DNA of 64,000 nucleotides from Planktothrix sp. (GTDB lineage: Bacteria > Cyanobacteriota > Vampirovibrionia > Obscuribacterales > Obscuribacteraceae), in NCBI GenBank assembly GCA_036703195.1, contig DATNPN010000018.1, positions 52,631-116,630 of the forward strand, in the 5' to 3' direction. The notes under the pieces were generated by a model that was given only the letters and a program-made list of their open reading frames with translations, ran no database searches and was not told where the DNA came from. The position numbers and the translations under genes were made by a program. Below, one piece after another: positions 1,665 through 52,000 of this stretch (position 1 is its first letter; each line of letters opens with the position of its first letter).

Positions 1665-2825
1665 ATGGCTGAAATAATCAACGACAAGATTCGCAGCATT
1701 GTCGCGCGAATCGAAGCAGCGCAAGTGATTTCGCCCGAGACGGATATACTCCTCGCGGAGCTGCTGGCGGAAGTGAAGACAAACTGCTCGCATCCGGATA
1801 TCGTCGCGCGCATCGCTGCATACGCGGAGGCGCCCGGTCAGGTTCTTCCCGTCAAGATGGACAGTGACGGTTATGCGCCTGCCTTCGACGTTCTCACTGA
1901 GGAAGCGGAGTTCGTCGATTTCTGGCAACGCAACGGCATTGTTGTCAGCAAGAACGTCGTTTCCAATGCGGTGCGCGAGCGTGCTATCGCCAGGGTGTAC
2001 GAGCTGACTGGCACGATGAGCAACGGCGCCTGCGATCTCACCAAGCCGGAGACCTGGCAGCACATGCCCGTCGACGCGGCAGGAACTCCGCTTCTCTCTC
2101 GCGGCTTTTTCGAGGTGTATCACGACGATACGCTGGCAGCGCTCCGGCAGTCGATTCGGATCTATCTGCACTACGTGCTGATCTGGTCACGATTCGATCT
2201 GTGGACCACGTTCGATCGCATCGGCGTCAAGCTTCCCGGGCACGGCGACGCTAAGGGTCTGCCGCTGCACGTCGATCAGAATCCGAAGGTGCACCCCAAC
2301 TTCCGCACAGTTCAGGGCGTGCTCGCTCTCAGCGACTGCCCAGCCGAGCGTGGAACCTATGTGGGCATTGCCGGCTCCAAGTGCATGTTTCACCGATATT
2401 ACACGCCCAAAGACGAGTATGTCGGTGAGTATGTGGAGCTCGATGTGCGCCGGCCCGACGCCTTGCCGCTTGTAGATCGCGCTCAGCTCTTTCCTCTGCG
2501 TGCCGGCGACCTGGTCAGCTGGGACTCCCGCACAACGCACGCGAATAGCGCCAATCTGTCGAACGATACTCGTATCGTCGCCTACATCGCCGCCGGCTTG
2601 GCGCGCGAGTCGTCGCCAGATGCGGTTCGTGAGCGGGAAGCGGCGTTTCTCACTGGTTTGGGCAGCAATGTTCGCGACGCTTACATGCACGCCAGCATGC
2701 GCCCTCGCTTTACCAATCCCGAGACGATCGCTCGCACTCGCGCTGCCGAACGTCTAACCCTTTTGGGGAGGCTTATCTATGGCAAACAAAGCTACGGCGA
2801 CATCGCCGCTCCGGCTGCTTCTTAA
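1665..2825 (+). CDS. PhyH-family Fe(II)/2-oxoglutarate-dependent dioxygenase
   Basis: It carries an HxD iron-binding motif (LPLHVDQNP) and the distal His in a PhyH-like context (WDSRTTHANSANLS). A GGAG Shine-Dalgarno precedes the ATG at 1665. Confidence 0.7.
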   Translation: MAEIINDKIRSIVARIEAAQVISPETDILLAELLAEVKTNCSHPDIVARIAAYAEAPGQVLPVKMDSDGYAPAFDVLTEEAEFVDFWQRNGIVVSKNVVSNAVRERAIARVYELTGTMSNGACDLTKPETWQHMPVDAAGTPLLSRGFFEVYHDDTLAALRQSIRIYLHYVLIWSRFDLWTTFDRIGVKLPGHGDAKGLPLHVDQNPKVHPNFRTVQGVLALSDCPAERGTYVGIAGSKCMFHRYYTPKDEYVGEYVELDVRRPDALPLVDRAQLFPLRAGDLVSWDSRTTHANSANLSNDTRIVAYIAAGLARESSPDAVREREAAFLTGLGSNVRDAYMHASMRPRFTNPETIARTRAAERLTLLGRLIYGKQSYGDIAAPAAS

Positions 2826-4830
2826 CGCCGAACCGTTCGGGTTCGGTCCTGCCGCCGCAATCGCTGACTGTTTCCCCCATCTGCGCAAATCGTTCGCTCG
2901 CCTCGCCTACGTTGGCAGTGGGCATACGCTCGATCTGCAGCGGCGTCTGCCGTACGATGCGGTGCATGAGGTGAAACCCGGCGATGACGGGGCGCTCGAA
3001 AGCATCTTCAGTCAATACGACTTGATGCTGACAGCGCTCGACTTCGGCATGGCCGCTGCGGCCGAGAAAGCCGGTCTGCCTGTCTGCATCTACGATCCGC
3101 TCACCTGGTACTGGAAAGAGATCCATCCGGCGGCTTCGCGTTGCCGCTTGTACATCGCACAGGACTTCTACGGCGTCAAAGAACGCTTGCACTCCGAAGC
3201 GGAAAAATTCGCTGCACCGCAGGTGGTGCAACCGCTTCTGCCCAGCACGGTGCCCTGGCGCGGCAAACGTGAGCACGTCCTTCTCAACCTGGGCGGGCTC
3301 TCCAATCCGCTCTGGGGCAATGAGGAGACGGTCGGGTACGCCCGTTTGATTGTCTCCTCCTTCTGCCAGGCAATCGACGGCAGGGAGAAAGTAATCATCG
3401 CCGGCAATTCGCTTCTGGCCAGAGAACTGAAAGAGTTCGGTGCCACCAACTTCAGCCGCGAAGAGATGCAGGAGATCCTGCACAAGGCGAAGTATGCACT
3501 GATGACTCCGGGTCTGGGCAACATCTACGATGCGGCCCGCTTCTCTACGCCCACGATATGGCTGCCTCCCGCCAACGACAGCCAGGCACAACAGCGCATC
3601 TTGCTGGGTGTTCATGACCGCTCTGATGGCTCACTCGATTGGAGTCAGTTCGTAACCGGCGCTGAGATCGATTATCACGGCGAACAAAGTGTCATTCTCT
3701 CTCAGATTGCTGCCGCGGTGAAGCGTGCGAACGCAAGCCAACGCAGTAAGAAGCAACTGGTCGGGCTCATGGCGCAACTGGTGAAGAGCATCGACACGAA
3801 AGTGGTTGGAGCGGCTGCCGGTCTGCTTTACGACTTCGGCTGGGATGGCGCCAAACAGGTGGCTGAGCTGGTGGTGCAGCAAGCGCAGCGCCTGTCCGTT
3901 CCGAAGTCGCGAACGAGCCCATACATTGACCTGGGGTTGCCTGGCGATCTGCGGGTGCGCGTCAAACATCCGCAGAAGATCTTCGCTTCGGAGGCGACCA
4001 GGCTGCTGGCTGGCGCATATGTGCCGGGTTTTTCCCTCCATACTTCGGGCTACGCACGGGAGAAGGCGGATCTGACGATCTCCTTCCACGAGAGTCGCGC
4101 CAAGCGCCTCAAAGTGGAGGGCAAGCAGATCGAGCTGCACGACCGTTGGAGCGGCGACGGCTCTACGCTGGACCTGTTGCACTTGATTCACAGCGCTGCC
4201 AGATTGCACTGGCTTCGTCGGGGCTTGTACTCGGTGCATTCGTCCTGCGTCGGCAACGACTCAGGGCATGCGCTCATCGTCGGACACTCCGGCGTGGGCA
4301 AAACCTCGATTGCCCTGGAACTGGTGAAGCGCGGTATGAAGCTGTACTCCGGCAACAAAACACTGGTGTCGGTCTCGGCGGATGGCGCTATCACCGCACA
4401 TGGTGGCACGCGGACGATCACCACGCGGGCTCAGGATGTCACCCGGCATGAGGCGGCTGCAGATGGAGTCGGTTATTCGGAGCGTTGTGCGTTCCTCCTG
4501 GATCCCGACCAATACAGCGCTGATGCAACGGTGAACATCAAGCTCATCGTTTTAGCGAAGCTCAATCCGGGCACCGACGACTTCACTCGCCAGGCCCCGG
4601 GCGGTGCTTTGCACCGGCTGTATCCGTACTTCCTCGACACTGTGAACGCGGACACGGTGTTGTGCGATGGGCACGAAGTCTTCTCCGGCAGCCCCCCTAC
4701 GGGCTGTCAGCGGAGGCTGAGCACAACTTTATCGGTGGCTCTCGGCAAAATTCCGGTATATTCGATGACCGGCAGCATGGAGTACATCACCGCAACGTTG
4801 GAGCGTGAATTATGCCCGACAGGAAAATAG
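2779..4830 (+). CDS. Fusion protein: degenerate GT-B glycosyltransferase-like N-terminal domain plus HPr-kinase/phosphorylase-like P-loop kinase C-terminal domain
   Basis: The C-terminal motif LIVGHSGVGKTSIALELVKRGMKLYSGNKTLV matches the HprK Walker-A/ALEL signature (GDSGVGKSE-ALEL-KRGH-LVADD). The N-terminal about 300 aa parallel the N-terminus of the downstream GT1 gene (…FGFGPAAAIADCFPHL… versus …GIGRGHTIRQVPIVEHF…). The gene overlaps the upstream gene by 47 nt and the downstream gene by 19 nt. GGGGAGG lies 7 nt before the ATG. Confidence 0.65.
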   Translation: MANKATATSPLRLLLNAEPFGFGPAAAIADCFPHLRKSFARLAYVGSGHTLDLQRRLPYDAVHEVKPGDDGALESIFSQYDLMLTALDFGMAAAAEKAGLPVCIYDPLTWYWKEIHPAASRCRLYIAQDFYGVKERLHSEAEKFAAPQVVQPLLPSTVPWRGKREHVLLNLGGLSNPLWGNEETVGYARLIVSSFCQAIDGREKVIIAGNSLLARELKEFGATNFSREEMQEILHKAKYALMTPGLGNIYDAARFSTPTIWLPPANDSQAQQRILLGVHDRSDGSLDWSQFVTGAEIDYHGEQSVILSQIAAAVKRANASQRSKKQLVGLMAQLVKSIDTKVVGAAAGLLYDFGWDGAKQVAELVVQQAQRLSVPKSRTSPYIDLGLPGDLRVRVKHPQKIFASEATRLLAGAYVPGFSLHTSGYAREKADLTISFHESRAKRLKVEGKQIELHDRWSGDGSTLDLLHLIHSAARLHWLRRGLYSVHSSCVGNDSGHALIVGHSGVGKTSIALELVKRGMKLYSGNKTLVSVSADGAITAHGGTRTITTRAQDVTRHEAAADGVGYSERCAFLLDPDQYSADATVNIKLIVLAKLNPGTDDFTRQAPGGALHRLYPYFLDTVNADTVLCDGHEVFSGSPPTGCQRRLSTTLSVALGKIPVYSMTGSMEYITATLERELCPTGK

Positions 4831-5933
4831 TCTACGGCATATGCGGCATCGGCAGGGGTCACACCATCCGCCAGGTGCCGATTGTCGAGCACTTCGCGCG
4901 CCAGAGTCGCCTGGTGATCTTCGCTTACGGCGAAAGTCACAAGTTCTACAGCGACCGTTATCGGGGGCACTCCTCGATAACGGTCGAGCGCGTCTCGGTG
5001 CCGTTTATGGCAGGCGATGCCAACGGACTCGACTTCGCAGCCAGTCTCAGACGGCATGAGCAAGGCGGTGTCGATCACTTCAGCGTCAACTGCAACGCGA
5101 TGGCGCGGGCACAGGCGATTCTGGGGCGACCGGATCTCGTGATCAGTGATTACGAACCGGTCTGTGCCCAATACGCATACGCGTCGGATGCACCATTGGT
5201 GACCATCGACCAGCAGAGCAAATACCTCGTCGGTGACTTTCCCGCGGTCCTGGGCGGGCAGACATATGTCGACGAGATCGCTCGTCTGCGCATGTTTTTC
5301 CCGCGTGCCCAAGCCCGTTTTGCTTGCTCGTTCTTCAACGTGCCACGAGCAGCTGCAGGCCGTGAGGTTGTCGATGTGTGCGCACCAGTGCTCAAGGACT
5401 CCATCTTGAGCATGAAGCGCACGCCCGCGAAAGGTCGCCAATCGATTGTGGTGTACATCTCATCGCAACGCGACTTTGTGCAGGACTTGGGTGAAGTGGC
5501 AGAGATCTGCGCCAAGCAGAAAAGCTGCGACTTTCACTTCTTCGTTCCGGCTGATGTCGCGGCGCGACTGGAAGAGAAGCAAGCGGTGTCTGTGTACAAA
5601 CACGGCGACGCGCGTTTTTCCAGCTTGCTCGAACAGTGCTCAGGGCTGGTGACGACGGGCGGTCACTCGCTTCTGTCGGAAGCCATGCATCTGGGTATGC
5701 CGGCGTACGTGATACCGCTGGCAGTGTACGAGCAGCACATGAATGCTCACGTCATCGATCGTCACGGTTTCGGCGTCAGCCGCCCGTGCGTCGAGTCCCA
5801 GGCGCTGGCGGAGTTCATCGAAGAGCTGCCGGCTTTTGCTCGAGCGATTGAATCAGACAAGGAAGTTCTTCTGCGCGGCTCTGGCGAAGATCACATCATC
5901 GCCAGCCTGGAGCGGCAGTTCTTCCTTCGGTGA
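4812..5933 (+). CDS. GT1-family (MGT/MurG-like) UDP-glycosyltransferase
   Basis: It has the C-terminal nucleotide-sugar signature …GLVTTGGHSLLSEAMHLGMPAYVIPLAVYEQHMNAHVIDRHGFG… and an N-terminal Gly-rich acceptor-domain motif YGICGIGRGH. Confidence 0.65.
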   Translation: MPDRKIVYGICGIGRGHTIRQVPIVEHFARQSRLVIFAYGESHKFYSDRYRGHSSITVERVSVPFMAGDANGLDFAASLRRHEQGGVDHFSVNCNAMARAQAILGRPDLVISDYEPVCAQYAYASDAPLVTIDQQSKYLVGDFPAVLGGQTYVDEIARLRMFFPRAQARFACSFFNVPRAAAGREVVDVCAPVLKDSILSMKRTPAKGRQSIVVYISSQRDFVQDLGEVAEICAKQKSCDFHFFVPADVAARLEEKQAVSVYKHGDARFSSLLEQCSGLVTTGGHSLLSEAMHLGMPAYVIPLAVYEQHMNAHVIDRHGFGVSRPCVESQALAEFIEELPAFARAIESDKEVLLRGSGEDHIIASLERQFFLR

Positions 5934-6007: not shown

Positions 6008-7303
6008 ATGCCAACTTTACGTGAACGGATGGCGAATCTGCTCGCGCGATTGAATATCGGGAGTGTGACCATGAGCTTTACCAAAGATGACGCGACGCGT
6101 GAGCTGGAGCAGTACGCGTCTGATGTGGCGGCGGTGCGAGCAAAGGCGATGGCCTTTCCGAACGGCATCGCTACTGCCGATGCCTGCCTGACGGTTGCCG
6201 ACACCTACTTCTCGTCTGCCAACACGAGTTTTGCCGGCGGACGATGGCAGCAAGCCGTCGACAATCTGACGAGCGGGCGATTCTACCTCGACCTGGCCAC
6301 GGAAGTGGTGGAGGAGTATCAGGCGCAGACTCAGTTCTTCGCGGCTGAAGCGGCGACAAAACTAAAACTGCCCGAGTATCCTGAGCCCAACTACTGCGAC
6401 GGCGATCAGGAGTCGAACAACTACGAGTGGCGCGGACTGGCTCTGCTGCTGGCAAAGGCGGAGGCATCGGTGGACCAGTTCATCCCTGATGACGAGCACG
6501 CTTTGTGGTGCATCGATCAGGCGCTCGACTATCTCAACGAGCTGTACGACACCGATGATTGGGACAACGTCGCGCCGTACTCCCGCGACGGACGCCTCTA
6601 TGCCAATCTGGCGATCGAACTGGTGCGGCAGTTTCTCCAGGCGCGCGATGACCAATCGGCGCTGGCGAAGCTGAAGGACGCGGAGGAAAACTACCTTCTC
6701 GAATTGAGCGAGGAAGACGACGACGACACCAGCGCTGCCGCCGATTGGCTGTGGTCTGCGGTCACCGAAACGCACAAGGGATATCTCGAGTGCCAGCGCG
6801 ATTGCCCCAACACCAAGCTGGTGGCAACGCACATCGAGGAGGCCATCGCTTTTCGCGATGCCGCTCGAGACAAATACTGGGACGAAGAGTGGAACGACGC
6901 CGGTTGGCAGGCATGCGAGGCGGTGTTTCTCGGCAAGCTCGCAGTCGAGATGAGCAGCACGTACGCGCGCGAGGTCCGGTTGTTGGTTGAGGGTCCCGGG
7001 ACGTACGAAGCTGACATCGACGAGGCGGACTACACCGAGGACAGCGACGATAGCGATCGGCAGGATGCTCTCGAGCAGTGGCGTCAAGTCGCCATTCGCG
7101 GAGTCAAAGCGCAGGCGTACCTCGACAGCAAAGCCTCAGGCTTTACGGCTGGCGAAGGCTTCCTGCAAACTGCCATCGGTTACATCGACAACGTCAAGCA
7201 AGCTGATGATTGGGATGATGTGAGCGACCCGCTGCGCGATGCGAAGTACTACTTCAATCTCGCGGTGCAGAAGGCTCGGAGCTTCGTGGCGAATAACCGC
7301 TAA
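6008..7303 (+). CDS. Acidic, Trp-rich hypothetical protein with 3-4 internal repeats of an about 35-aa helical motif
   Basis: Internal repeats are W…DNL…GRFYLDLATEVV, DDWDNVAPYSRDGRLYANLAIELVRQF and DDWDDVSDPLRDAKYYFNLAVQKARSF. There is no signal peptide. A strong terminator follows the gene. Confidence 0.5.
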   Translation: MPTLRERMANLLARLNIGSVTMSFTKDDATRELEQYASDVAAVRAKAMAFPNGIATADACLTVADTYFSSANTSFAGGRWQQAVDNLTSGRFYLDLATEVVEEYQAQTQFFAAEAATKLKLPEYPEPNYCDGDQESNNYEWRGLALLLAKAEASVDQFIPDDEHALWCIDQALDYLNELYDTDDWDNVAPYSRDGRLYANLAIELVRQFLQARDDQSALAKLKDAEENYLLELSEEDDDDTSAAADWLWSAVTETHKGYLECQRDCPNTKLVATHIEEAIAFRDAARDKYWDEEWNDAGWQACEAVFLGKLAVEMSSTYAREVRLLVEGPGTYEADIDEADYTEDSDDSDRQDALEQWRQVAIRGVKAQAYLDSKASGFTAGEGFLQTAIGYIDNVKQADDWDDVSDPLRDAKYYFNLAVQKARSFVANNR

Positions 7304-7358: not shown

Positions 7359-7622
7359 TGCTCGCACATACTATCTGTTGTAGCATAATTGCCAAGGCTC
7401 CGAAGACAATCCTAAAGAGCTGTTGACAAAACACGGGCTGTCCGCGACCCCTTGATTTTCTCTGCATGCCCTTCGCCTGGCGCATTTGCAACCTTTTCAA
7501 AATTAGTCGATGACGGGGCTTCTTATAGAGCTCGTCATCTGCTAACGTTTTTCTCTGAAAATCATCGTAAGCTAAGACCGTTTTGCCGGTATCAACCCCC
7601 GCCGTTTCGGAAAGGAAAAACC

Positions 7623-8288
7623 ATGAAAGTCAATGCGTTGTTGCTTGGTGCCGTGCTCTCCTGCACCACACTGGCTGCCTACAGCTTTGAGAAGACCCAG
7701 CTTTTTCACTATGGGCAGAATGAGATGCACAGCGGCACCGCGATAGTTCGCGAGACCGGTCACGTAGACGCCTACGGCACGACGCAGGTTCAAGCTTACG
7801 ACCAGAGTGAGATCAAAGCGTACGACAAGGCGCAGGTCGAAGCGTATGGACACACGGTCGTATACGCCAATGCCGAGTCGAAAGTTACTGCTTTCGACAA
7901 TACCCGCGTTTTTGCCTCAGACCACGCTGAGATTGACGCTACTGGCTCGTCGACAGTACAAGCGGGCGGCAACTCCAATGTCATTGCTCACGGCAACGTC
8001 GCCATCGTCGCTAAGGACCACGCTACCATCAAAGCTTACGACCACTGCACCGTCTTCGCGGCAGACAATTGCAAAATCGAGGCGCATGGCGATGTTACGG
8101 TAATGTCGCTGGGCAACGTCAATGTGACGGCTTCCGACAACGTCAACGTTCGTGCCTACGGCAGCTGTGTCATTGATGCTACCGACAATGCCGTCATCGA
8201 CGCCAACGACAAAACCACCGTGCAAGCAACTAAAACAGTAAAAGTCGAATTGCACGACGCCGCCAAACAGATTCTCGCTAAAGGCTAA
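7623..8288 (+). CDS. Secreted protein composed of about 20 tandem octapeptide repeats (predicted beta-solenoid)
   Basis: It has a signal peptide (MKVNALLLGAVLSCTTLAAYS). After that comes a period-8 repeat (V/I)-x-A-x-(D/G)-x-x-x, for example VQAYDQSE / IKAYDKAQ / VEAYGHTV / VTAFDNTR / VFASDHAE / IDATGSST / IVAKDHAT / IKAYDHCT …. AAAGGA lies 8 nt upstream of the ATG at 7623. Confidence 0.6.
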   Translation: MKVNALLLGAVLSCTTLAAYSFEKTQLFHYGQNEMHSGTAIVRETGHVDAYGTTQVQAYDQSEIKAYDKAQVEAYGHTVVYANAESKVTAFDNTRVFASDHAEIDATGSSTVQAGGNSNVIAHGNVAIVAKDHATIKAYDHCTVFAADNCKIEAHGDVTVMSLGNVNVTASDNVNVRAYGSCVIDATDNAVIDANDKTTVQATKTVKVELHDAAKQILAKG

Positions 8289-8328
8289 GCCTCGACTGCG
8301 GCAGACCGGCAAATCAAAACAATCGATA

Positions 8329-8368
8329 GTGCGGCGCCACCATATTTGGTGGCGCCGCACTCATTTGT
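8329..8368 (+). terminator. Perfect 14-bp inverted repeat hairpin (probable terminator of the repeat-protein gene)
   Basis: GTGCGGCGCCACCA-TATT-TGGTGGCGCCGCAC is followed by TCATTTGTTG. Confidence 0.45.
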
Positions 8369-8673: not shown

Positions 8674-8940
8674 ATGTTTACCAACGAAACTGAATCGCGC
8701 TCTGAACAGCCGTCCAAGAAGCCCGACACCAACTTTGTAGCCTATGTCGGACCGATGGGCAACCTCCGTCAGGTCTCGCTGGAGCCGGGCACCTACTCGG
8801 TCCAGAAGATTCTCGACACCGCTGGAATGGTAATCAAGCCCGGCTACGAAGCTCGCGTCGATGGTGAGACTGTCTCGCCCTCCACGATCGTCGAGACCGG
8901 CGCCACCGTCTACCTGCTCAAGTCGGTCGCCGGCAACTAA
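8674..8940 (+). CDS. Small ubiquitin-like (beta-grasp) protein, Ubl component of a conjugation-type operon
   Basis: The 88-aa protein has an N-terminal polar tail followed by a beta-grasp-like core (…FVAYVGPMGNLRQVSLEPGTYSVQKILDTAGMVIKPGYEARVDGETVSPSTIVETGATVYLLKSVAGN). AGGAG lies 7 nt upstream. It is the first gene of an operon that also encodes JAB and E1-like proteins. Confidence 0.6.
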   Translation: MFTNETESRSEQPSKKPDTNFVAYVGPMGNLRQVSLEPGTYSVQKILDTAGMVIKPGYEARVDGETVSPSTIVETGATVYLLKSVAGN

Positions 8941-8962
8941 TAGTTGTCGCTCAGCCACTGCC

Positions 8963-8997
8963 GCAAGCAGCCTTCGCTTTACTGGGAGGCTGCTTGC
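8963..8997 (+). promoter_or_regulatory. Intercistronic stem-loop between the Ubl gene and the downstream large gene
   Basis: There is a perfect 10-bp stem GCAAGCAGCC / GGCTGCTTGC with a 15-nt loop and no U-tract. It lies 22 nt after the Ubl stop and 28 nt before the next start. Confidence 0.35.
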
Positions 8998-9025
8998 AAT
9001 GGCCGCAAATGGAAAAGGAGGAAGC

Positions 9026-11068
9026 ATGCATCACCATCGCCTTATTATTCTTCTAGTCTTTTTGATTGTTTCGGCCATCGTGGCTTTGACGCCCGGGTTG
9101 CGGCAAATCTTCATTGACTACTACGTCGCCTTGAGGAGGCGTTTCGGACCCCTGAGCGTCAGCCCGGCTGAGGTGAGGAGCTTTATGCCGCGTGTGCTCA
9201 AGGCTTTGAGCGACCGGTCTTCACTGGCACTCTCGCAGGACAGCGCCGGCACCGTAGCTTTCGAAGGTTTCAACGACTGTTACCGGGCGATCTTCCAGCC
9301 GCTCGTGGCTGCGATACTGGCGCCCGAAGTCGGCGCCTGTCGCGTGAAAAACTGCAACGGCATAGCACAAAGCGCTCCTGCCGACGCAGCGTTTCATATC
9401 CTCGTTTACAGCGCTGCGTCAGGAGTTGCTCAATGTCTCGCACCGGCGCGATACCAGAGAGACGACACTGAGACGATGTTCGCTCCAACCGGTCTTGGCG
9501 TACCGCTTATTGACGATGCTGGTTTTATCGTCGCGGAGTTGGTGGACAACTGCCTTTACGTGTTGGTGAATCCTTTCGTCAACGGCAATCTATCGGAAGC
9601 TCAGTCTTTCGGCGAGGTGCTTCTCAAGGCGAAAGAGGCTCTGCGTCAGTTGAAGAGCGCTGAAAGCGATAGCCTCAGATTCGAGACTGTTGCTGCTGCA
9701 CCAGCGCTTGGACGGTTCTGCGACACCGGCTACGTCGATCGTCAGCGCGAACAGCTGCGCAGCTTACACCGCCAACAGCATGAGCTGTTGTCTTACGAAG
9801 CAGCCGGCAATGGTGCTCCCGAGCGAGAGTTCGAGCAAATTTGCCGCAACTCCAAGGTGCTCAGTGTGAAGGTGACGTATAGAGCAATCATTGTCAGAAC
9901 AGACGTGCTCTACTGCGATAGCAGCTACAACTCGCAGCTGTACGAGATTGGTGCCTTTCGCATCCGCATTCCTTTCTCACCCAGAGGGAACGTGTCCTGG
10001 AGAAACACCACCCGGTTGGTGAGAGCGTATTACGAAAGGCGCTTCCACGCTCCGCACGTGCCGTTCTTTCACAAACCTTGCCTTGGTTCGGCAAAGCACA
10101 CATTCCCCAAGTTGATCCGCGATCGTCAGTTTGCTGCTGCCGTCGACCTGGCCATTGCCTTTGTGCAGTCGGCCAATGAAAACGACCCATGGGGGCGACA
10201 TGTGGTTGATTGGCCAATCGCTCATGTTCGTCATAAGACGAAATACAGGGCGACGAGCTACACATACCTCTTGCCCGTCTCTTGCCGTGAGAAGCTTCGC
10301 GATATCCGATTTAGCGAAGATGGCAATTACCTGGTGGTTGAGGGGCAGGAGTTACAGGCTGCCCTAATCGCCATCGGCAGCGACGCCTACGAGGACGGCA
10401 CGGATCGCGGAAGAGTCGTTCTCAAGCTGACGACGCCCAAGCAAAAGCCTGCTGTTGTTGCAATAGCGGGTGCACGCGAACGATACCTCAGGGCTTGCCG
10501 CGGTCGAGAGGAAGGCGCCAGTGAAGAACTGGTTCGGCAGATTCACGCCTCCACAGTCACTCTGCGTTCATACGAAGAACAGCTCTTCTGGCAGATCCGC
10601 GATCAATTCTGCCGAGAGAGTTCGGACGATGAGCGCGCTGCTAACGCGAAAGAACAGTGGCAGCGGCTGACTCAACATCGCAAGATCGAGCGGGTGCGCG
10701 TGGTCAACGGCACAATCTTGATCGATACGAAAACTCTGTTCGGCAAAAGCCGCAAAACAAAAGAGCTGCACGAGCTGGGAGCGTTCACGATCGCAATCGG
10801 CGCCAACAGCGGCAAGTTCGGCGTGCGCTGGTTTAACCGGACCCGGCGCTCACCCCTGATCGGGATGAATGCCGCCAATGTCTTTGCAGACGGCACACCC
10901 GTTTGCGAGGAGGTGCTCGCCACCCTGCTCGAACTCGGCGCTCGCTGCGAATTCGGTGATGTCGCCAATCTCGCCATTCAATTCGTCGAGGCCGTCAGCG
11001 AGACGTCCGCGGGGTATCTGGATGGATGGCCGAAAGCCCAGGAGGTGAAAGTCCATGCAAACGCCTAA
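9026..11068 (+). CDS. Large operon component: N-terminal TM helix plus two tandem copies of an about 120-aa Cys-containing domain (candidate E2-like/transferase module)
   Basis: The start at 9026 (MHHHRLIILLVFLIVSAIVALTPGL) is preceded by AGGAGG. The internal duplication is …VKVTYRAIIVRTDVLYC…LYEIGAFRIRIPF…HAPHVPFFHKPCLGS…DLAIAFVQSANENDPWG versus …VRVVNGTILIDTKTLFG…LHELGAFTIAIGA…NAANVFADGTPVCEE…NLAIQFVEAVSETSAGYLDGWP. The beta-meander followed by an H-x-P-H…C stretch resembles the UBC fold (HPN…C). The gene overlaps the JAB gene by 14 nt. Confidence 0.5.
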   Translation: MHHHRLIILLVFLIVSAIVALTPGLRQIFIDYYVALRRRFGPLSVSPAEVRSFMPRVLKALSDRSSLALSQDSAGTVAFEGFNDCYRAIFQPLVAAILAPEVGACRVKNCNGIAQSAPADAAFHILVYSAASGVAQCLAPARYQRDDTETMFAPTGLGVPLIDDAGFIVAELVDNCLYVLVNPFVNGNLSEAQSFGEVLLKAKEALRQLKSAESDSLRFETVAAAPALGRFCDTGYVDRQREQLRSLHRQQHELLSYEAAGNGAPEREFEQICRNSKVLSVKVTYRAIIVRTDVLYCDSSYNSQLYEIGAFRIRIPFSPRGNVSWRNTTRLVRAYYERRFHAPHVPFFHKPCLGSAKHTFPKLIRDRQFAAAVDLAIAFVQSANENDPWGRHVVDWPIAHVRHKTKYRATSYTYLLPVSCREKLRDIRFSEDGNYLVVEGQELQAALIAIGSDAYEDGTDRGRVVLKLTTPKQKPAVVAIAGARERYLRACRGREEGASEELVRQIHASTVTLRSYEEQLFWQIRDQFCRESSDDERAANAKEQWQRLTQHRKIERVRVVNGTILIDTKTLFGKSRKTKELHELGAFTIAIGANSGKFGVRWFNRTRRSPLIGMNAANVFADGTPVCEEVLATLLELGARCEFGDVANLAIQFVEAVSETSAGYLDGWPKAQEVKVHANA

Positions 11069-12167
11069 GCCAGAAAAGGCAAAAGCTTCGTCCAAAGACG
11101 AAGAGAGCGGGTTTTTCCAGAAGATGCTGTCGCTGCGTTCGGCCGTGCCGGACGGTGAGACGGTTTTGGTTGAGCCGCCCGTCCTGCCGAAACCCCCCTC
11201 CGCTAACAACAAGCCCAGTGCCAATCCTGCTCCTCTGGGGCTGGGCATCGCCACTCCTCCTCCTCCTTTCGCAAGCGTTTCACCGCTCAGCGATCTACCA
11301 CTGATGCTGCACGATTACCATCCGCGCGCGGAGCTGATTGAGAGACCGCCGGCAGTGTTTCTCACTCCTGAGACATACAAGCGAATCTCTCTATTCATTC
11401 ACGTCGGCAAGCGTGAGGTTGGCTGGATGGGCACCGTAACAAAATCAGAGCAGGGTGACTATTTAATCGATCAAGTCTTCCTGCTGCACCAGAACGTCTC
11501 CGATGTCGAAACTGAGATAACTCGAGATGGGCTGGCCAAGCTCGGTATGGAGCTGCAGCGCCAATACGGCGCCGACACGATCAAGCACGTGAATCGCCTG
11601 CACTTCTGGGGGCATTCGCATGTGCGCATGGGGACGGGACCATCCCCCCGCGACGAAAACACTTCCCTGCGATTCGGCTGGAACGACGACTTTCAACTGC
11701 TCATTCGCGGCATCTTCAACAAGCGCGGACGAGCGGAGTTTGCCATCTATCGTTTCGACAAGGGCATTCGCATCCTCGATGTGCCGTGGGGAATCTATGA
11801 TCCGGCTACAAAATCGGTTCTCTATCTGCGCCAAAAAGAAAAACCGTTTTTCTTCGCCAATGGACCGGCGTACAGCCAGATGCAACCTCCATCGACTGTG
11901 GCAAGCGCCGTCACGGCTTCAACGCAGAAGTTGAAAACGGCGGTGGTGAATGAGGTGAGACAGTCCGTCGACAGTGTCACCGCCATGTTCGATAAAGAGC
12001 TGACGCTGGAGCAGAAGTTCGCTGGGCTGCCTGAGCTGCTCCGCCCCACCCAGGCAGAGTTGCAAGCAGTGCAGAGCGAATACGACGAAAAAGTAGTCGA
12101 GCATATCGTGCCCGGCTTCACCAAAGTGCGCGAGTGGGTGGGTGCGCTGAAACGGAGCATAAAATGA
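11055..12167 (+). CDS. JAB/MPN+ (JAMM) metallopeptidase with a Pro-rich N-terminal extension
   Basis: It has a perfect JAMM motif: Glu (KREVGWMG) followed by HFWGHSHVRMGTGPSPRD, which is H-x-H-x7-S-x2-D. AGGAGG lies upstream. Its stop overlaps the E1 start in the sequence AATGA. Confidence 0.75.
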   Translation: MQTPKPEKAKASSKDEESGFFQKMLSLRSAVPDGETVLVEPPVLPKPPSANNKPSANPAPLGLGIATPPPPFASVSPLSDLPLMLHDYHPRAELIERPPAVFLTPETYKRISLFIHVGKREVGWMGTVTKSEQGDYLIDQVFLLHQNVSDVETEITRDGLAKLGMELQRQYGADTIKHVNRLHFWGHSHVRMGTGPSPRDENTSLRFGWNDDFQLLIRGIFNKRGRAEFAIYRFDKGIRILDVPWGIYDPATKSVLYLRQKEKPFFFANGPAYSQMQPPSTVASAVTASTQKLKTAVVNEVRQSVDSVTAMFDKELTLEQKFAGLPELLRPTQAELQAVQSEYDEKVVEHIVPGFTKVREWVGALKRSIK

Positions 12168-12871
12168 ATCAGAATCCGATTAACACGTCTCGCCTGGTTG
12201 AGGTTTTCTCGGCGGAGGCTTTCGACAACCGGCGTATCGATGTGATTGGAGCCGGCGCTACAGGGAGCAAAGTGGTTCTGGAGCTGGCAAAAGCCGGGCT
12301 GGACGATATTCACGTCTACGACTTCGACACCGTCGCGCACGAGAACATCGGCAATCAGGCGTACCGTCGTGAACGCGACATCGACCAACTCAAGGTAGAT
12401 GCGCTTCAAAACCTGGTCTACGAGGCCACCGGTCTGAAGGTCAATACTCACGCAGAACGAGTAGACGGCTCGCAAGAGCTGGGAGACATCGTCTTCCTGC
12501 TGACAGACCGCATGGACTCTCGCAAACAGATCTTCGAGAGCTCCATCAAATACAACATGAACGTCCAACTGATGATCGAGACGCGCATGGGCGTAGACCA
12601 GGGGCGCGTGTACGCAGTCAATCCGAATGACTCCGTACACGTTCGTGCCTGGACGAAAACACTGTGCGACGATGTGGTCACCGAAACTTCCGCTTGCGGT
12701 ACCAAAATCAGCGTCGGCCCCACAGCCGGCATCATCGCCAATTATGCGATGTGGGCACTGTTTCGTTGGTCTGCTCTGCAAATCAACCCGGACGGCGAAG
12801 ACAAGCTGGAAAATGAGTTGATCGTCAGTCTGCGCCCGCCGGCGCTGATGACGCGCTTCTTCAACCGGTAA
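12164..12871 (+). CDS. Minimal E1-like (ThiF/MoeB/HesA superfamily) adenylyltransferase
   Basis: It has a Rossmann GxGxxG motif (IDVIGAGATGSKVVLELAKAGL) and a ThiF-type motif YDFDTVAHENIGNQ (compare D-x-D-x-V-x-x-S-N-L-N-R-Q). A candidate catalytic Cys lies in ETSACGT. The protein is 235 aa. Confidence 0.8.
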   Translation: MNQNPINTSRLVEVFSAEAFDNRRIDVIGAGATGSKVVLELAKAGLDDIHVYDFDTVAHENIGNQAYRRERDIDQLKVDALQNLVYEATGLKVNTHAERVDGSQELGDIVFLLTDRMDSRKQIFESSIKYNMNVQLMIETRMGVDQGRVYAVNPNDSVHVRAWTKTLCDDVVTETSACGTKISVGPTAGIIANYAMWALFRWSALQINPDGEDKLENELIVSLRPPALMTRFFNR

Positions 12872-12920: not shown

Positions 12921-13088
12921 ATTGCAACCGCTGCCAGCACCACATATGGTGCAGGTCGGCGATTTACTCTTTTGCCCCGAGCTACTACTACATGTCGCAT
13001 GTGTTATACATTGAGTCATCCTGCCCATATGCACAACAGCCGGCTTTGACACCGGCTGTGTTTTCAATTCGATAAGTTGAAACCGCTC

Positions 13089-49011: not shown

Positions 49012-52000
49012 CTACTTCCTGAATTTGCTCGACGCCAGAATATAGCTGAGTGAGTCAGGGGTTCCGTGATCCTTCACCCAATTAAAATGGTCGGCAGCCT
49101 GATTTGGCGACCCTTCCAACTGTGCATTGAAACCAAGCCATGTGTGGGCGTCGGTGAGAAACGGATTGTTGTCGGCTGCCGCCGTCATAACATCGGATTC
49201 TGATCCGACCCGGCGCAAGAAAGAAAGCACAGGCGCCGGCCACACTTCGGTCGGCAGATGCGCGGCCGCGCTGTCCAACTGTTTGGTCGCGGCGGAGCGC
49301 TGACTGTCCAGGCCATATCCCAGCCACTCGAGGAGCGCTGCGGTGCCCGAGTTTTGAAACTTCCAGCCGCTGAGAGCAAGATATCTTTGCCCGTCACTGG
49401 CAGCCTTCTCTCCCTGCCCCAGCGCATTATAGGCGACGGATCTCTCCAGGTGTGCCATGGCGATGTGGTCTGACACTTCTGGGTCAAAGCTCTTCTGGGC
49501 GCGATCGATGTAGGCCGAATAGTCGTCGGCAGCCTGTTGAAACTTGCCGTCGTGCAGATTAGCCCGAGCCCTGAAATAGTATGGATCGAGAGCGCCTGGA
49601 CTGGCCGCTATGGCAGCGGTTTCGCTCTGCACGGCTTGAGCATACTGTTTTGCAGCCATTTGCGTTTCGCCTTGCACCTGCAAACAGTAGACGTCTCGTG
49701 GCTTCAGCTGAACGGCCTTATCTGCCAGATCCGTTGCTTGGGCGGTCTGACCAAGTGCCATCGCTGCCAGAGCCGCGGTCGCTAGTTCATGTGCATCGCT
49801 GCTCTTGCCAAATTTTTTCACTGTGGCGGCAGCAACCGATTTCAAATTATTGGCCGCCAATGCAAACTGAGGATCGATCTCCAACGCTGCCATGAAATCT
49901 CTCAGAGCTTGAGCTTTATTGCCTAATTCAGAAACGGTGAATCCTCTGTCGTTAAAACAGTCTGGACGACCCGGCATTATGCGCAACGAAGCTGAGTAGG
50001 CCCTTTCTGCTTCCGCTTTCCGGCCAAGCTTTCGCAGCGCCGTCGCCTTATCGAAGTATGTAACAGCTGAATTAGGCTGCAGCCGCAAGGCTTGGTCGGC
50101 GGCATTCACTGACGCTGTGTAATCTCCCAGTGAGAAGTAGATTGCAGAGAGGTCTCTAAACGCGTCGGCGTACGAAGGATCCAGTTGGGTGGCCTTGCGC
50201 AGATCGGGGAGCGAATTCTTGTACTGCTTCATGCGCGAGTATGCCAGTGCTCTCCCGAAGTATGCCTGTTTGTTGTTCGAGTCGCCTTTGATGATTTTGC
50301 TGTAGTCCGCAATCGCTTTGTTGTACTCCTTCAGCCATACCAGCGCCGCGGCGCGGTCCAACAGTACTTTTGCGTTGTCCGGGTCGAGACGCAAGGCGTT
50401 GTCGTAATCATCGGCTGCTTGCCTGTACTGTTGCAACGCGTAAGCGCAATTTCCCCGACTGTGATAAAGCTCCGGGTCGCTCGGGTCGGCGGCGATGGCT
50501 TCATCATAATGCTCCATCGCTTCCGTCCAGCGCCCTTGCGAACGAGCGGTGTCGGCTTGCTCGGCCGCGTTGCCGCCGGCTCCGCCAATCTTGGTGATGT
50601 CGAGACCACCCTTGCCGTGTCCCAGCATGTTGTATACGACGGCACCGGTGCCGATGCACAGTGCCACAGCGACGCAGGCGCCAATGATAAGTTTGGCCGG
50701 TCCTTTGGAAGCGCGCTTTTGCTGCGGTAAATCGGCAGCCGATCCTTCCAGCAGATGCGCATAGCGATTGGCAAGATTAGGATCGCGCGGAGCACGTGAC
50801 TCCTCCTGCGGTCTGCGAGACGGGGACGTCTCACTGCCACCGCCAGGAGTGCGAGCGGGCGGGCTCGGATCTGCCGATGGCATACTTTGACCCGTGCGCA
50901 TCAGCGGCTTTTCTGGCGCTGCCGGTATGGTCACCCGTGCTTTCTGTTGCGATGAGGTGTCCGAGTCGTCGGTTATGACCGTGTCGGAAGGAGTGTTCAT
51001 CTGCACGGGCGAGGGTACGGACGCAGACGCCGGCTCCGCCGGCGGCACGAAGTTCTGTGCTCGAGAATCCGGCATTTGAGACAGTTGAGGCTGTCCGGCG
51101 AACGAGGCGTTGCCATCCTCGTCATAAGTGGGTGCACCTGTTCCGAAAGGCGACAGATTAGCCGGCTTCACTGGAGCAGGGGGTTCGCCTGGAAGTCCGA
51201 ACGGGGAGAGGTTGGCCGCGAGCGGCTCTGGTTGTGGCGGCGGAAAAGATGGAGTGGTTGGGGGCGGCGCACTCATTTGCGGCGGAAATGGAGGCGCCGG
51301 AAACGGCGACTGACCACCGGCGAGAGGCTGCATCGGTTGGGCCGCCGGCTGATTGGTCATCGATTGCCTGGGCGTGGCAGGCTGCTGTGCCGGCAGCGAC
51401 TGCGATGTCGACGGGCGAGGTCCGAAGCGAGTGCTGGGCGATGCTCCCGTGATGCCGAAAAAGCCTGTCTCTTCAGCCAGCTTGTGAACGTCGGAGGTCG
51501 TGTTGTGGCTCGGATCGATAAATTTCGTCTCCGGCGGCAACACAGGCAAAGGGCTATTTAGATTGACGGACTTTGTGAAATCGCGGGTCGGCTTCTCTTG
51601 ATCCGGTTTTGCTTCTGCCACCTCCTGCGGTGGCGTCGTCGGAAGATTCATGGTCGCTTCGCCGCTTGACTCTTGGCTCACCGGTTCTTTGCGAGATGGC
51701 GGCAGAATCGAGCGCAAACTGGGCAATCCTGAGCGGGTGGTCTCGTTGTATTTCTCGCTTTTTGCATCCTCTTCCAGGCGAGCGAGCTTTTCATTAAAGC
51801 CGATCCCTTCCGTCGGCATCTTGATGTGCGTCTCTTGATCGCTTGCCGCAACGCCCCACTGCGCGTTTTCCGGCAGGCGAGGACGAGGACCGGTATCGGT
51901 CATGAGCTTCTCTGATGGTGGTATCGCACGTAGTGGCATTTTTGGCGTCAGGTCCGGATTGAAATCCGGATTGAGCGGCTCTCTGTCATTCACCGAACGG

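What the first reader, a model, noticed from the sequence alone, without database searches (positions are those of the whole stretch)
9026..11068. Large operon protein carries an internal tandem duplication, each copy with a conserved Cys after a beta-rich segment; possible tandem E2/UEV-like pair on a membrane anchor
The two segments are …KVLSVKVTYRAIIVRTDVLYC…LYEIGAFRIRIPFSPRGNVSWRNTTRLVRAYYERRFHAPHVPFFHKPCLGS…DLAIAFVQSANENDPWG and …KIERVRVVNGTILIDTKTLFG…LHELGAFTIAIGANSGKFGVRWFNRTRRS…PLIGMNAANVFADGTPVCEE…NLAIQFVEAVSETSAGYLDGWP. They align along their full length.

The four-strand meander followed by an H-x-P-H…(about 10 residues)…C stretch is reminiscent of the UBC HPN…C active-site region. 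The second copy lacks the His pair, as in a UEV.

An active E2 paired with an inactive UEV-like partner on a single chain, preceded by a TM helix (MHHHRLIILLVFLIVSAIVALTPGL), would localise conjugation to the membrane. Alternatively the protein could be the substrate or effector that is itself tagged.
Basis: inference. Interest (0 to 1): 0.6.

Follow-up and report, generated by a model that had tools for sequence, protein, structure and literature searches.

The report
Membrane-anchored E2 plus pseudo-E2 fusion protein
This 680-residue membrane-anchored protein fuses two old paralogous domains that resemble ubiquitin-conjugating enzymes (E2), one with an intact Cys/His site and one degenerate; it lies between a ubiquitin-like gene and JAB-peptidase and E1 genes, and belongs to a large, unannotated family of bacterial and phage ubiquitination-like operons.

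Summary
Residues 258-399 and 536-671 of the ORF at 9026-11068 are homologous (blastp E 3e-8). A profile of foreign copy-1 domains scores the C-terminal half at 61.6 bits, against 7.2 for the best of 1000 shuffles.

It is not a recent internal duplication. In relatives (mostly Melainabacteria/Obscuribacterales MAGs) the two halves are adjacent genes A and B, so this is an A-B gene fusion. The operon is Ubl (8674-8940, ends AGN), A-B, JAB peptidase (11055-12167, EVGW...HSHx7Sx2D) and a minimal ThiF-type E1 (12164-12871).

Copy 1 orthologs keep LYC...APH[VI]xxxGxAC[LMF]G[NST]. Copy 2 orthologs lose the His, the first Cys and N..D, and often the catalytic Cys. An E2/UEV-like pair on an N-terminal TM anchor is therefore supported, by computation only.

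No Pfam, NCBIfam, PADLOC or PHROG model matches the E2-like, Ubl or JAB proteins. The domain has 2338 cluster representatives.

The parts
8328..8361 (+). Terminator-like hairpin (15-bp stem) after the upstream gene; 5' boundary of the operon
8674..8940 (+). Ubiquitin-like protein of the ThiS/MoaD beta-grasp type, 88 aa, ending ...SVAGN
   Evidence: Homologous to the Ubl genes of related operons. The family profile aligns end to end with ThiS (P 2e-4) and MoaD (P 8e-5), with GN on the terminal GG. There is no Pfam hit above threshold. ThiS/TGS hits for homologs are sub-threshold.
9026..11068 (+). The finding: a 680-aa fusion protein (A-B) with TM anchor, N-module, coiled coil, active-type E2-like domain, junction, B N-terminal region and degenerate E2-like domain
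9041..9097 (+). N-terminal transmembrane anchor (aa 6-24, LIILLVFLIVSAIVALTPG)
   Evidence: Hydropathy is 2.76, with net +3 charge after the helix and +1 before it. The AF2 model has a helix at aa 2-21. About one third of family representatives have a similar N-terminal segment.
9251..9679 (+). N-module (aa 76-218), a repeatable alpha/beta domain of unknown function (motif FHI..S.P.G..AP...PSG.G.P..D..G..VAEL..NLY)
   Evidence: Present in 1-5 copies in 140 of 159 family representatives. AF2 confidence is moderate, pLDDT about 65-89. hhalign to the E2-like domain (P 0.017) and to E2s (P 0.056) is not significant.
9821..10225 (+). E2-like domain, copy 1 (aa 266-400), active type. Key residues: Cys297 (9914-9916), His344 (10055-10057), Cys352 (10079-10081), Asn384, Asp387
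10226..10261 (+). Fusion junction (aa 401-412, VRHKTKYRATSY). It replaces the stop codon, spacer and start codon that separate genes A and B in relatives.
   Evidence: Homologs of A end at WP.A.. Separate B proteins start M.TY[LI]L, which matches window aa 413 onward. DNA was read; no start codon with an RBS is nearby.
10262..10648 (+). N-terminal region of the B moiety (aa 413-541): a small domain plus helical linker
   Evidence: Aligns with the N-termini of separate B proteins: L003 328 aa, L001 285 aa, L007 286 aa, L008 284 aa. AF2 confidence is low.
10649..11041 (+). E2-like domain, copy 2 (aa 542-672), degenerate (UEV-like). It has AAN instead of APH, Val626 in the catalytic-Cys column, Cys627 one position later (10904-10906), and LFG instead of LYC. 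N..D is lost.
11055..12167 (+). JAB/JAMM metallopeptidase (370 aa). Glu121 lies in EVGW; HSHVRMGTGPSPRD (aa 187-200; 11613-11654) fits HxHx7Sx2D.
   Evidence: The motif is invariant in all complete homologs. Three homologs give sub-threshold Prok-JAB hits, E 0.0025-0.09. The window protein has no Pfam, NCBIfam, PADLOC or PDB-sequence hit.
12164..12871 (+). Minimal ThiF/MoeB-type E1 (235 aa from ATG 12164; the ORF list gives GTG 12134). It has GAGATG and an invariant crossover-loop Cys in SACGT (12695-12697).
   Evidence: Pfam ThiF 5e-19. PDB matches are ThiF, MoeB and the NEDD8 E1. In an alignment with MoeB the Cys aligns with MoeB's 'ALTC' Cys, and there are no CxxC zinc motifs.
13036..13059 (+). 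Terminator-like hairpin after the E1 gene; 3' boundary of the operon. The next gene, a class I FBP aldolase, is convergent.

Best explanation
The 680-aa protein is the E2 component of a four-gene ubiquitination-like operon: Ubl, E2-like, JAB peptidase, E1. It arose by in-frame fusion of two neighbouring, anciently duplicated genes. In relatives these are separate: A (TM anchor, N-module(s), coiled coil, active-type E2-like domain) and B (small N-domain, coiled coil, degenerate E2-like domain).

Proposed mechanism (inferred):
1. The ThiF-type E1 adenylates the C-terminus of the Ubl (...AGN). It probably takes the Ubl onto its invariant crossover-loop Cys.
2. The Ubl passes as a thioester to Cys352 of copy 1. 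Cys352 sits just before a short helix, eight residues after the invariant His344, which occupies the Asn position of the HPN motif. Asn384 and Asp387 lie at the positions of UbcH5 N114 and D117.
3. Copy 2 has lost these residues. It acts as a non-catalytic partner, like a UEV (Mms2 with Ubc13) or an RWD domain, binding Ubl or substrate or stabilising copy 1.
4. The N-terminal anchor (N-out/C-in) holds the machine on the cytoplasmic face of the membrane.
5. The JAB enzyme matures Ubl precursors (poly-Ubl in relatives) and/or removes conjugates.

Shown here: the duplication, the fusion, the operon conservation and the motif patterns. Supported by models: the UBC fold and the Cys equivalence. Inferred only: thioester chemistry, A-B contact, targets and biological role.
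For: - Duplication: blastp E 3e-8; foreign-profile score 61.6 bits against 7.2 or less in shuffles.
- Fusion: A and B are separate adjacent genes in the other Melainabacteria/Obscuribacterales loci. Window aa 413-673 matches B proteins at E 1e-25 to 1e-34. A-B pairs occur twice in one operon in L011-L014 and L016 (L019 holds part of a second pair). Two-domain proteins make up 14 of the 159 proteins held after that search, the window protein included.
- Profile-profile: P 5-7e-5 over 117-122 columns; 0 of 200 column permutations reach the score. It aligns YEIGAF with YEGGxF, APH with HPN, C352 with C85, and N384..D387 with N114..D117.
- Conservation: A-type LYC...APH[VI]xxxGxAC[LMF]G[NST]...SVNxxDxxG holds in every A-type domain of the fetched bacterial loci; B-type copies are degenerate.
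- Context: Ubl - E2L(-E2L) - JAB - E1 recurs in 28 further fetched loci from several phyla and from large viral contigs. The JAMM motif and the E1 Cys are invariant.
- TM anchor.
Against: - Foldseek against the PDB found nothing significant. The best hit was E 0.42, though it was an E2.
- No Pfam, NCBIfam, PADLOC or PHROG E2 model matches, even at E up to 10. No PDB sequence matches.
- A second near-invariant Cys (C297) plus His344 and Asp387 could instead form a metal site or a Cys-His-Asp centre with different chemistry.
- I could not inspect model coordinates.
- The full-length model is poor (pLDDT 62), so nothing is known about A-B contact.
- No experiment exists for any family member.
Confidence: 0.7

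Rival explanations
1. The domain has a UBC-like fold but is not a thioester-forming E2. The co-conserved Cys297, His344, Cys352 and Asp387 would form a metal-binding site or a Cys-His-Asp catalytic centre. The activity could be ligase/E3-like, transpeptidase or peptidase, acting on the Ubl or its C-terminal Asn.
For: Two near-invariant Cys plus one His and one Asp are lost together in the B-type copies. The family escapes every E2 profile. The Ubl ends in Asn rather than Gly, so the chemistry may differ from that of canonical E2s.
Against: hhalign puts Cys352 exactly on the E2 catalytic Cys and His344 on the HPN Asn. The operon has E1, Ubl and JAB but no other E2 candidate. Some distant relatives have Ubls ending GA or GG+2, which points to ordinary C-terminal activation.
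Confidence: 0.15
2. The protein is the target or effector of the pathway, as the CD-NTase is in type II CBASS. A membrane protein would be tagged or activated by the Ubl, and conjugation would be done by the E1 alone.
For: It has a membrane anchor and variable N-modules, like many effectors. The E1 has its own invariant Cys.
Against: The conserved part of the protein is the C-terminal UBC-like domain with an E2-type motif, not the N-terminal region. That domain is kept in soluble, TM-less relatives. It occupies the E2 position of the Bil-type gene order Ubl-E2-JAB-E1 (PMC10557695).
Confidence: 0.07
3. The locus makes a peptide natural product rather than a protein tag. A ThiF-like enzyme would activate a C-terminal Asn as MccB does on microcin C, and the large protein would be a maturation, export or immunity factor. 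Nearby glycosyltransferase and dioxygenase genes would belong to the same cluster.
For: The Ubl ends in Asn in most bacterial loci with a complete Ubl gene (two carry one further residue, Asn or Ser). The E1 is a minimal ThiF-type enzyme. Glycosyltransferases, an HprK-like protein and a PhyH dioxygenase lie upstream at 1665-5933.
Against: The 'peptide' is a 66-aa beta-grasp unit homologous to ThiS and MoaD, often in 2-3 head-to-tail copies. A JAB peptidase is always present. The upstream genes are not conserved in other loci, and a strong hairpin separates them from the operon. The E1 lacks the N-terminal peptide-clamp domain that MccB has (my knowledge; 235 aa, single domain).
Confidence: 0.05
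4. The two-copy architecture is an artefact: a lost stop codon from a sequencing or assembly error in a MAG, or chance similarity.
For: The window comes from a metagenome-assembled genome. Among the 33 fetched loci, only the window has A and B fused.
Against: The identical 680-aa protein is on record from two contigs and two sources, NCBI and Logan. Thirteen other cluster representatives have two E2-like domains in one chain. The junction reads through 12 in-frame codons with no nearby alternative start. The similarity is far beyond chance.
Confidence: 0.03

Closest known systems
BilABCD operons (Type I = '6d', Type II = '6c/CEHH'): bacterial ISG15-like ubiquitination systems
   Same: Same four functions and the same gene order, Ubl-E2-JAB-E1 (PMC10557695). 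The E2 has a catalytic Cys. A JAB enzyme can mature the Ubl. Poly-beta-grasp Ubls occur (PMC11601603).
   Different: - The Bil E1 is multidomain (IAD+AAD+CYS, with a Zn site). This E1 is a single ThiF/MoeB-like domain of 229-245 aa with a crossover-loop Cys and no CxxC.
- Bil E2s have their conserved His C-terminal to the Cys, or the CEHH signature. Here the His is 8 residues N-terminal to the Cys, as in classical HPN.
- The Bil Ubl exposes a C-terminal Gly. Here the Ubl ends GN.
- Bil has no second, degenerate E2 gene, no TM anchor and no N-modules.
- No model-level match.
Ubc13-Mms2/Uev1a (eukaryotic E2 plus UEV heterodimer) and other UEV/RWD pseudo-E2s
   Different: Here the pair is bacterial. 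It is encoded by adjacent genes or fused in one chain, and is membrane-anchored. Heterodimerisation is only inferred from adjacency, pairwise duplication and fusion. In some viral relatives both copies keep the Cys/His motif.
Type II CBASS Cap2 and the stand-alone CBASS E2 (CdnG-E2, PDB 8hsb)
   Different: There is no CD-NTase. The modifier is a beta-grasp Ubl. E1 and E2 are separate proteins. PADLOC E1-E2 models touch only the E1 Rossmann region.
Bub operons ('6e'/DUF6527)
   Different: Bub works through Ser/Tyr oxyesters and has a DUF6527 serine protease. Here Cys is conserved in both E1 and E2, and no DUF6527 gene is present.
Membrane-anchored eukaryotic E2s (Ubc6/UBE2J1/2)
   Different: Those are C-terminal tail anchors on the ER (my knowledge). 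Here the anchor is N-terminal, on a bacterial membrane, with large intervening modules.

Membership tests
UBC/E2 superfamily (ubiquitin-conjugating enzyme fold) | UBC fold: N-terminal helix, antiparallel beta-meander, then C-terminal helices | tested here: met
UBC/E2 superfamily (ubiquitin-conjugating enzyme fold) | Catalytic Cys in the loop after beta4, about 8-10 residues after an HPN-type motif and just before a short helix | tested here: met
   Copy 1: hhalign puts C352 on UbcH5B C85 and A342-P343-H344 on H75-P76-N77 (control). The Cys is conserved in 165/173 domains and the His in 161/173. Copy 2 does not meet this feature.
UBC/E2 superfamily (ubiquitin-conjugating enzyme fold) | Match to curated E2 sequence models (Pfam UQ_con, Prok-E2_A-E, Metal_CEHH) | tested here: not met
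   No hit for the window protein or its domains at E up to 10. No hit for 74 family members at E up to 1.
UBC/E2 superfamily (ubiquitin-conjugating enzyme fold) | Forms an E1-dependent thioester with a Ubl | not testable with these tools
   This needs biochemistry.
UBC/E2 superfamily (ubiquitin-conjugating enzyme fold) | Genomic or functional association with an E1 and a Ubl | tested here: met
   The Ubl - E2L - JAB - E1 operon is found in the window and in 28 further fetched loci.
UEV/RWD-type pseudo-E2 (copy 2) | Homologous to E2 but lacking the catalytic Cys and HPN-type residues | tested here: met
   Copy 2 is homologous to copy 1. It has AAN in place of APH and Val in the Cys column. B-type orthologs carry T/Y/R in place of the His and C/A/G/S/V/L/F/I in the Cys column, and LYC and N..D are lost.
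UEV/RWD-type pseudo-E2 (copy 2) | Physical partnership with an active E2 | not testable with these tools
   Only indirect support: adjacency, duplication of the genes as pairs, and gene fusion.
BilABCD (Type I/II) | Gene set and order Ubl-E2-JAB-E1 | tested here: met
BilABCD (Type I/II) | Multidomain E1 with an inactive adenylation domain and an inserted CYS domain | tested here: not met
   The E1 is a single 229-245-aa ThiF domain that aligns along its whole length with MoeB. The Bil E1 architecture is taken from PMC10557695.
BilABCD (Type I/II) | E2 signature: Cys followed by a conserved His (Type I/II), or CEHH (Type II) | tested here: not met
   Here the conserved His precedes the Cys by 8 residues.
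BilABCD (Type I/II) | Ubl with a conserved reactive C-terminal Gly exposed by the JAB enzyme | tested here: inconclusive
   The Ubl units end [ARKV]GN, with Asn aligned on the last Gly of ThiS and MoaD. Distant relatives end GA or GGCL. The mature end is unknown.
Bub (6e/DUF6527) | DUF6527 serine protease, with Ser/Tyr instead of Cys in E2/E1 | tested here: not met
   No such gene is in the operon. Cys is conserved in both E2L and E1.
Type II CBASS (Cap2/Cap3) | E1-E2 fusion next to a CD-NTase | tested here: not met
   E1 and E2L are separate genes, and no nucleotidyltransferase is in the operon.
Microcin C-type (MccB) pathway | Short precursor peptide ending in Asn, plus an E1 with an N-terminal peptide clamp and mcc accessory genes | tested here: not met
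   The C-terminal Asn is present. However, the precursor is a beta-grasp Ubl, the E1 has no extra domain, and no accessory genes are conserved.

The most novel reading that the evidence does not exclude
This may be a previously undescribed major family of prokaryotic and phage ubiquitination-like systems. Its E2 works as an obligate E2/pseudo-E2 pair (two genes or one fused chain), often on the membrane. Its modifier is made as a polyubiquitin-like precursor that ends in Gly-Asn. In many Melainabacteria the operon is coupled to a ClpB-like AAA+ unfoldase. That would make it a bacterial analogue of Ubc13-Mms2-type chain building feeding a Cdc48-like extraction or degradation step. The C-terminal Asn might also allow succinimide-based chemistry not seen in known Ubl pathways.
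Probability: 0.2. Interest if true: 0.85.

Novelty: new variant of a known kind. Interest (0 to 1): 0.65.

Why it matters
Bacterial ubiquitination-like pathways (CBASS Cap2, Bil, Bub) have only recently been shown to conjugate proteins, and they inform the origin of the eukaryotic system. This family would add three things.

- An E2 whose active-site layout (a His at the HPN Asn position, upstream of the Cys) is closer to classical E2s than the Bil E2s are.
- A prokaryotic E2/UEV-like pair. Gene fusion provides 'Rosetta-stone' evidence that the two work together.
- A membrane-tethered version of the machinery.

The family is large: 2338 cluster representatives at 50% identity. It spans several phyla and large phage contigs, and it is invisible to current annotation models. 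A profile for it would annotate thousands of 'hypothetical proteins'. The window protein is a natural single-chain construct for structural and biochemical work.

Tried and rejected
- Pfam, NCBIfam, PADLOC and PHROG scans of the target, its sub-domains, the Ubl and the JAB found nothing usable. A Pfam scan of 74 family members gave only coiled-coil noise.
- A profile search of PDB sequences gave only spurious SPX-domain hits on the helical linker. A PDB sequence search with the JAB protein gave no hit.
- The search for homologous proteins with the C-terminal half returned nothing, a limit of its word index. The B proteins were recovered from neighbouring genes instead.
- Foldseek on the full-length model (pLDDT 62) and on the domain model gave no significant hits.
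- I tested whether the N-module is a further degenerate UBC domain. hhalign gave P 0.017 and 0.056, so this is not established.
- The plasmid collection has no relative.
- There is no ClpB-like gene and no second copy of the system elsewhere in the window.
- The hairpin between the Ubl gene and the target folds no better than shuffled sequence (z -1.2).
- Literature searches found no description of this family.
Full report
**1. The observation**

The ORF runs from ATG 9026, seven bases after aaaggagga, to the stop at 11066-11068, giving 680 aa. The longer ORF in the mechanical list (8861) overlaps the upstream gene and is not the real start.

The two quoted segments are present. blastp of aa 1-420 against aa 421-680 aligns aa 258-399 with aa 536-671 at 27% identity, E 3e-8.

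To avoid circularity I built an HMM from six copy-1 domains of other organisms. It scores the window's C-terminal half at 61.6 bits (E 3.5e-21). The best of 1000 shuffles scores 7.2 bits. The duplication is real.

The N-terminal segment LIILLVFLIVSAIVALTPG has a 19-residue Kyte-Doolittle mean of 2.76. It is followed by more positive charge than precedes it, which suggests an N-out/C-in anchor.

**2. A gene fusion, not a recent internal duplication**

The first homolog search found only 10 relatives, and all end right after copy 1. Fetching their contigs showed a separate gene of 284-339 aa immediately downstream. That gene is homologous to window aa 413-673, with E 1e-16 to 1e-34. These B proteins start M.TY[LI]L, which matches window aa 413 onward (TYLLPVS).

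In the window, twelve in-frame codons (10226-10261) replace the stop codon, spacer and start codon. No start codon with an RBS lies nearby.

The fused state is not unique. Of the 159 proteins held after the exhaustive profile search, 14 have two such domains, the window protein included. The identical protein is on record from two contigs and two sources.

**3. The operon**

With HMMs built from the neighbours I mapped 28 further fetched loci.

- Melainabacteria/Obscuribacterales MAGs carry [Ubl] - A - B - JAB - E1 - [ClpB-like AAA+]. Several carry two consecutive A-B pairs.
- Thermoanaerobaculia, Flavobacteriaceae and 'Saccharibacteria' bins carry a single E2-like gene - JAB - E1 - Ubl.
- Four IMG/VR contigs of 150-207 kb carry E2L(-E2L) - JAB - E1 and, in three of them, a Ubl gene; three have two E2L genes. 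Some flanking genes on two of them (L030, L031) hit phage helicase, exonuclease and nucleotidyltransferase PHROGs.

In the window the operon is bounded by hairpins at 8328-8361 and 13036-13059. It contains:

- **Ubl, 8674-8940.** The family profile aligns end to end with ThiS (P 2e-4) and MoaD (P 8e-5).
- **The fused A-B protein, 9026-11068.**
- **A JAB peptidase, 11055-12167.** EVGW...HSHVRMGTGPSPRD fits E...HxHx7Sx2D, and the motif is invariant in all complete homologs. Homologs give sub-threshold Prok-JAB hits.
- **A minimal ThiF-type E1, 12164-12871.** Pfam ThiF scores 5e-19. It has GAGATG and an invariant SACG[TA] Cys that aligns with the MoeB crossover-loop Cys. It has no CxxC zinc motifs.

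**4. What the repeated domain is**

No sequence library recognises it.

An AlphaFold2 model of aa 240-400, built from a 12-sequence alignment, reached pLDDT 80.5 and pTM 0.74. Its order of elements is helix, beta-meander, loop, helices.

- Cap2 and BubB;
- the UEVs Mms2 and Tsg101;
- RWD domains (Knl1, FANCL, RNF25, GCN2, Spc24/25).

Foldseek found nothing significant; its best hit, an L. major E2, had E 0.42. The structural evidence is therefore consistent but moderate.

hhalign gave P 5-7e-5 over 117-122 columns. None of 200 column-permuted controls reached the score: 32.5 against a maximum of 22.7.

That alignment puts:

- YEIGAF on the E2 YEGGxF strand;
- A342-P343-H344 on H75-P76-N77;
- Cys352 on the catalytic Cys85;
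- N384..D387 on N114..D117.

In the model Cys352 lies just before a short helix, as in E2s.

**5. Active and degenerate copies**

Across the best representatives, Cys352 is kept in 165/173 domains. His344 is kept in 161, Gly349 in 170, Asn384 in 157 and Asp387 in 161. A second Cys (C297, in LYC) is kept in 161.

Split by gene, every A-type or solo domain in the fetched bacterial loci reads LYC...[HNQ]APH[VI]xxxGxAC[LMF]G[NST]...SVNxxDxxG.

Every B-type domain has lost the LYC Cys, the His (now T/Y/R) and N..D. The catalytic column in B-type domains is C, A, G, S, V, L, F or I.

The window's copy 2 reads LFG...AANV...GTPVCEE. It has Val in the Cys column and a Cys one position later. 'A conserved Cys in each copy' is not correct.

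In two viral contigs both copies keep the motif. The degeneration is therefore lineage-specific.

**6. Mechanism**

See Best explanation. In short, a Ubl-E1-E2 relay runs through Cys352. Copy 2 is a non-catalytic partner, and the whole assembly is tethered to the inner face of the membrane. The JAB enzyme matures and/or removes the Ubl.

Adjacency, duplication of the genes as pairs, and fusion all argue that A and B act together. Whether they touch, and what they modify, is unknown. The N-module (aa 76-218) occurs in 1-5 copies in 140 of 159 representatives. It may recognise targets. Its resemblance to UBC domains is not significant.

**7. Comparison with known systems**

The gene order equals that of Bil (Ubl-E2-JAB-E1). 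However, the E1 is a single MoeB-like domain rather than the multidomain Bil E1. The His lies upstream of the Cys rather than downstream or in a CEHH signature. The Ubl ends GN.

Bub uses oxyesters and a DUF6527 protease. CBASS Cap2 is an E1-E2 fusion that acts on a CD-NTase.

Literature searches found no description of this family. Database names are all 'hypothetical protein'. The domain has 2338 representatives at E 1e-3 or better among 1.84 billion cluster representatives.

**8. Verdict**

I rate the finding a new variant of a known kind, a bacterial ubiquitination-like operon with an unrecognised E2 family and an E2/pseudo-E2 pair. Interest is 0.65.

Noticed in passing
window 8932-8940; L001, L003, L005-L008, L011-L020, L022, L023, L025, L027: Every Ubl unit of the bacterial loci ends [ARKV]-Gly-Asn, followed by 0-1 residue or by the next unit. 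The Asn aligns with the last Gly of ThiS and MoaD. Relatives encode 2-3 head-to-tail units, like polyubiquitin. Distant viral relatives end GA or GGCL. A reactive C-terminal Asn next to a ThiF-type enzyme recalls MccB chemistry.
   Followed up: partly
L001 14618-17224; L007 10253-12694; L008 9623-12325; L018, L021, L022, L028: A ClpB/ClpA-like double-AAA+ protein (807-900 aa) directly follows the E1 gene in many Melainabacteria operons. This hints at coupling of Ubl tagging to unfolding or extraction. It is absent from the 64-kb window.
   Followed up: partly
L029-L032 (IMG/VR UViGs of 150-207 kb): Complete E2L(-E2L)-JAB-E1-Ubl cassettes lie in large viral contigs. The flanking genes hit phage helicase, exonuclease and nucleotidyltransferase PHROGs. 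In L031 and L032 both E2-like copies keep the PH...C motif.
   Followed up: partly
L011-L014, L016, L019: Some Melainabacteria operons carry two successive A-B gene pairs separated by a tri-Ubl gene. The E2/pseudo-E2 pair is duplicated as a unit.
   Followed up: no
window 9251-9679 (aa 76-218); P0002, P0003, P0049, P0141: The N-module is a repeatable domain with up to 5 copies in proteins of about 1100 aa. Its motif order (DGxFHI ... PSGxGxPIxDxxGxxVAEL..NLY) loosely parallels the E2 YEGGxF ... HPNIxxxGxICLDIL pattern, but the statistics are not significant.
   Followed up: partly
window 9914-9916 (Cys297): A second near-invariant Cys (in LYC) is specific to the active-type domain and is always lost in the degenerate copy. 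Its role is unknown; a second thiol, a disulfide or a metal ligand are possible.
   Followed up: no
window 8962-9000: A 14-bp hairpin (GCAAGCAGCCU...AGGCUGCUUGC) lies between the Ubl stop codon and the target's RBS. The region folds no better than shuffled sequence (z -1.2).
   Followed up: yes
window 49012-53937 (- strand): The strong GC/AT-skew anomaly at 50-54 kb comes from a 1641-aa ORF. It has a long Q/P-rich low-complexity region (QQQPLQQQQ repeats), a TM segment and C-terminal TPR-like repeats.
   Followed up: partly
window 7452-8288 and 6008-7303: Two upstream ORFs are not conserved next to the system elsewhere. One is a repetitive beta-helix-like protein with weak DUF2345/VgrG-like hits. 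The other is an acidic 431-aa protein with internal repeats.
   Followed up: no
whole window: NCBI labels the source MAG 'Planktothrix sp.'. The closest relatives of this operon are all in Melainabacteria/Obscuribacterales, and the window's G+C is about 55%, so the taxonomic label may be wrong.
   Followed up: no
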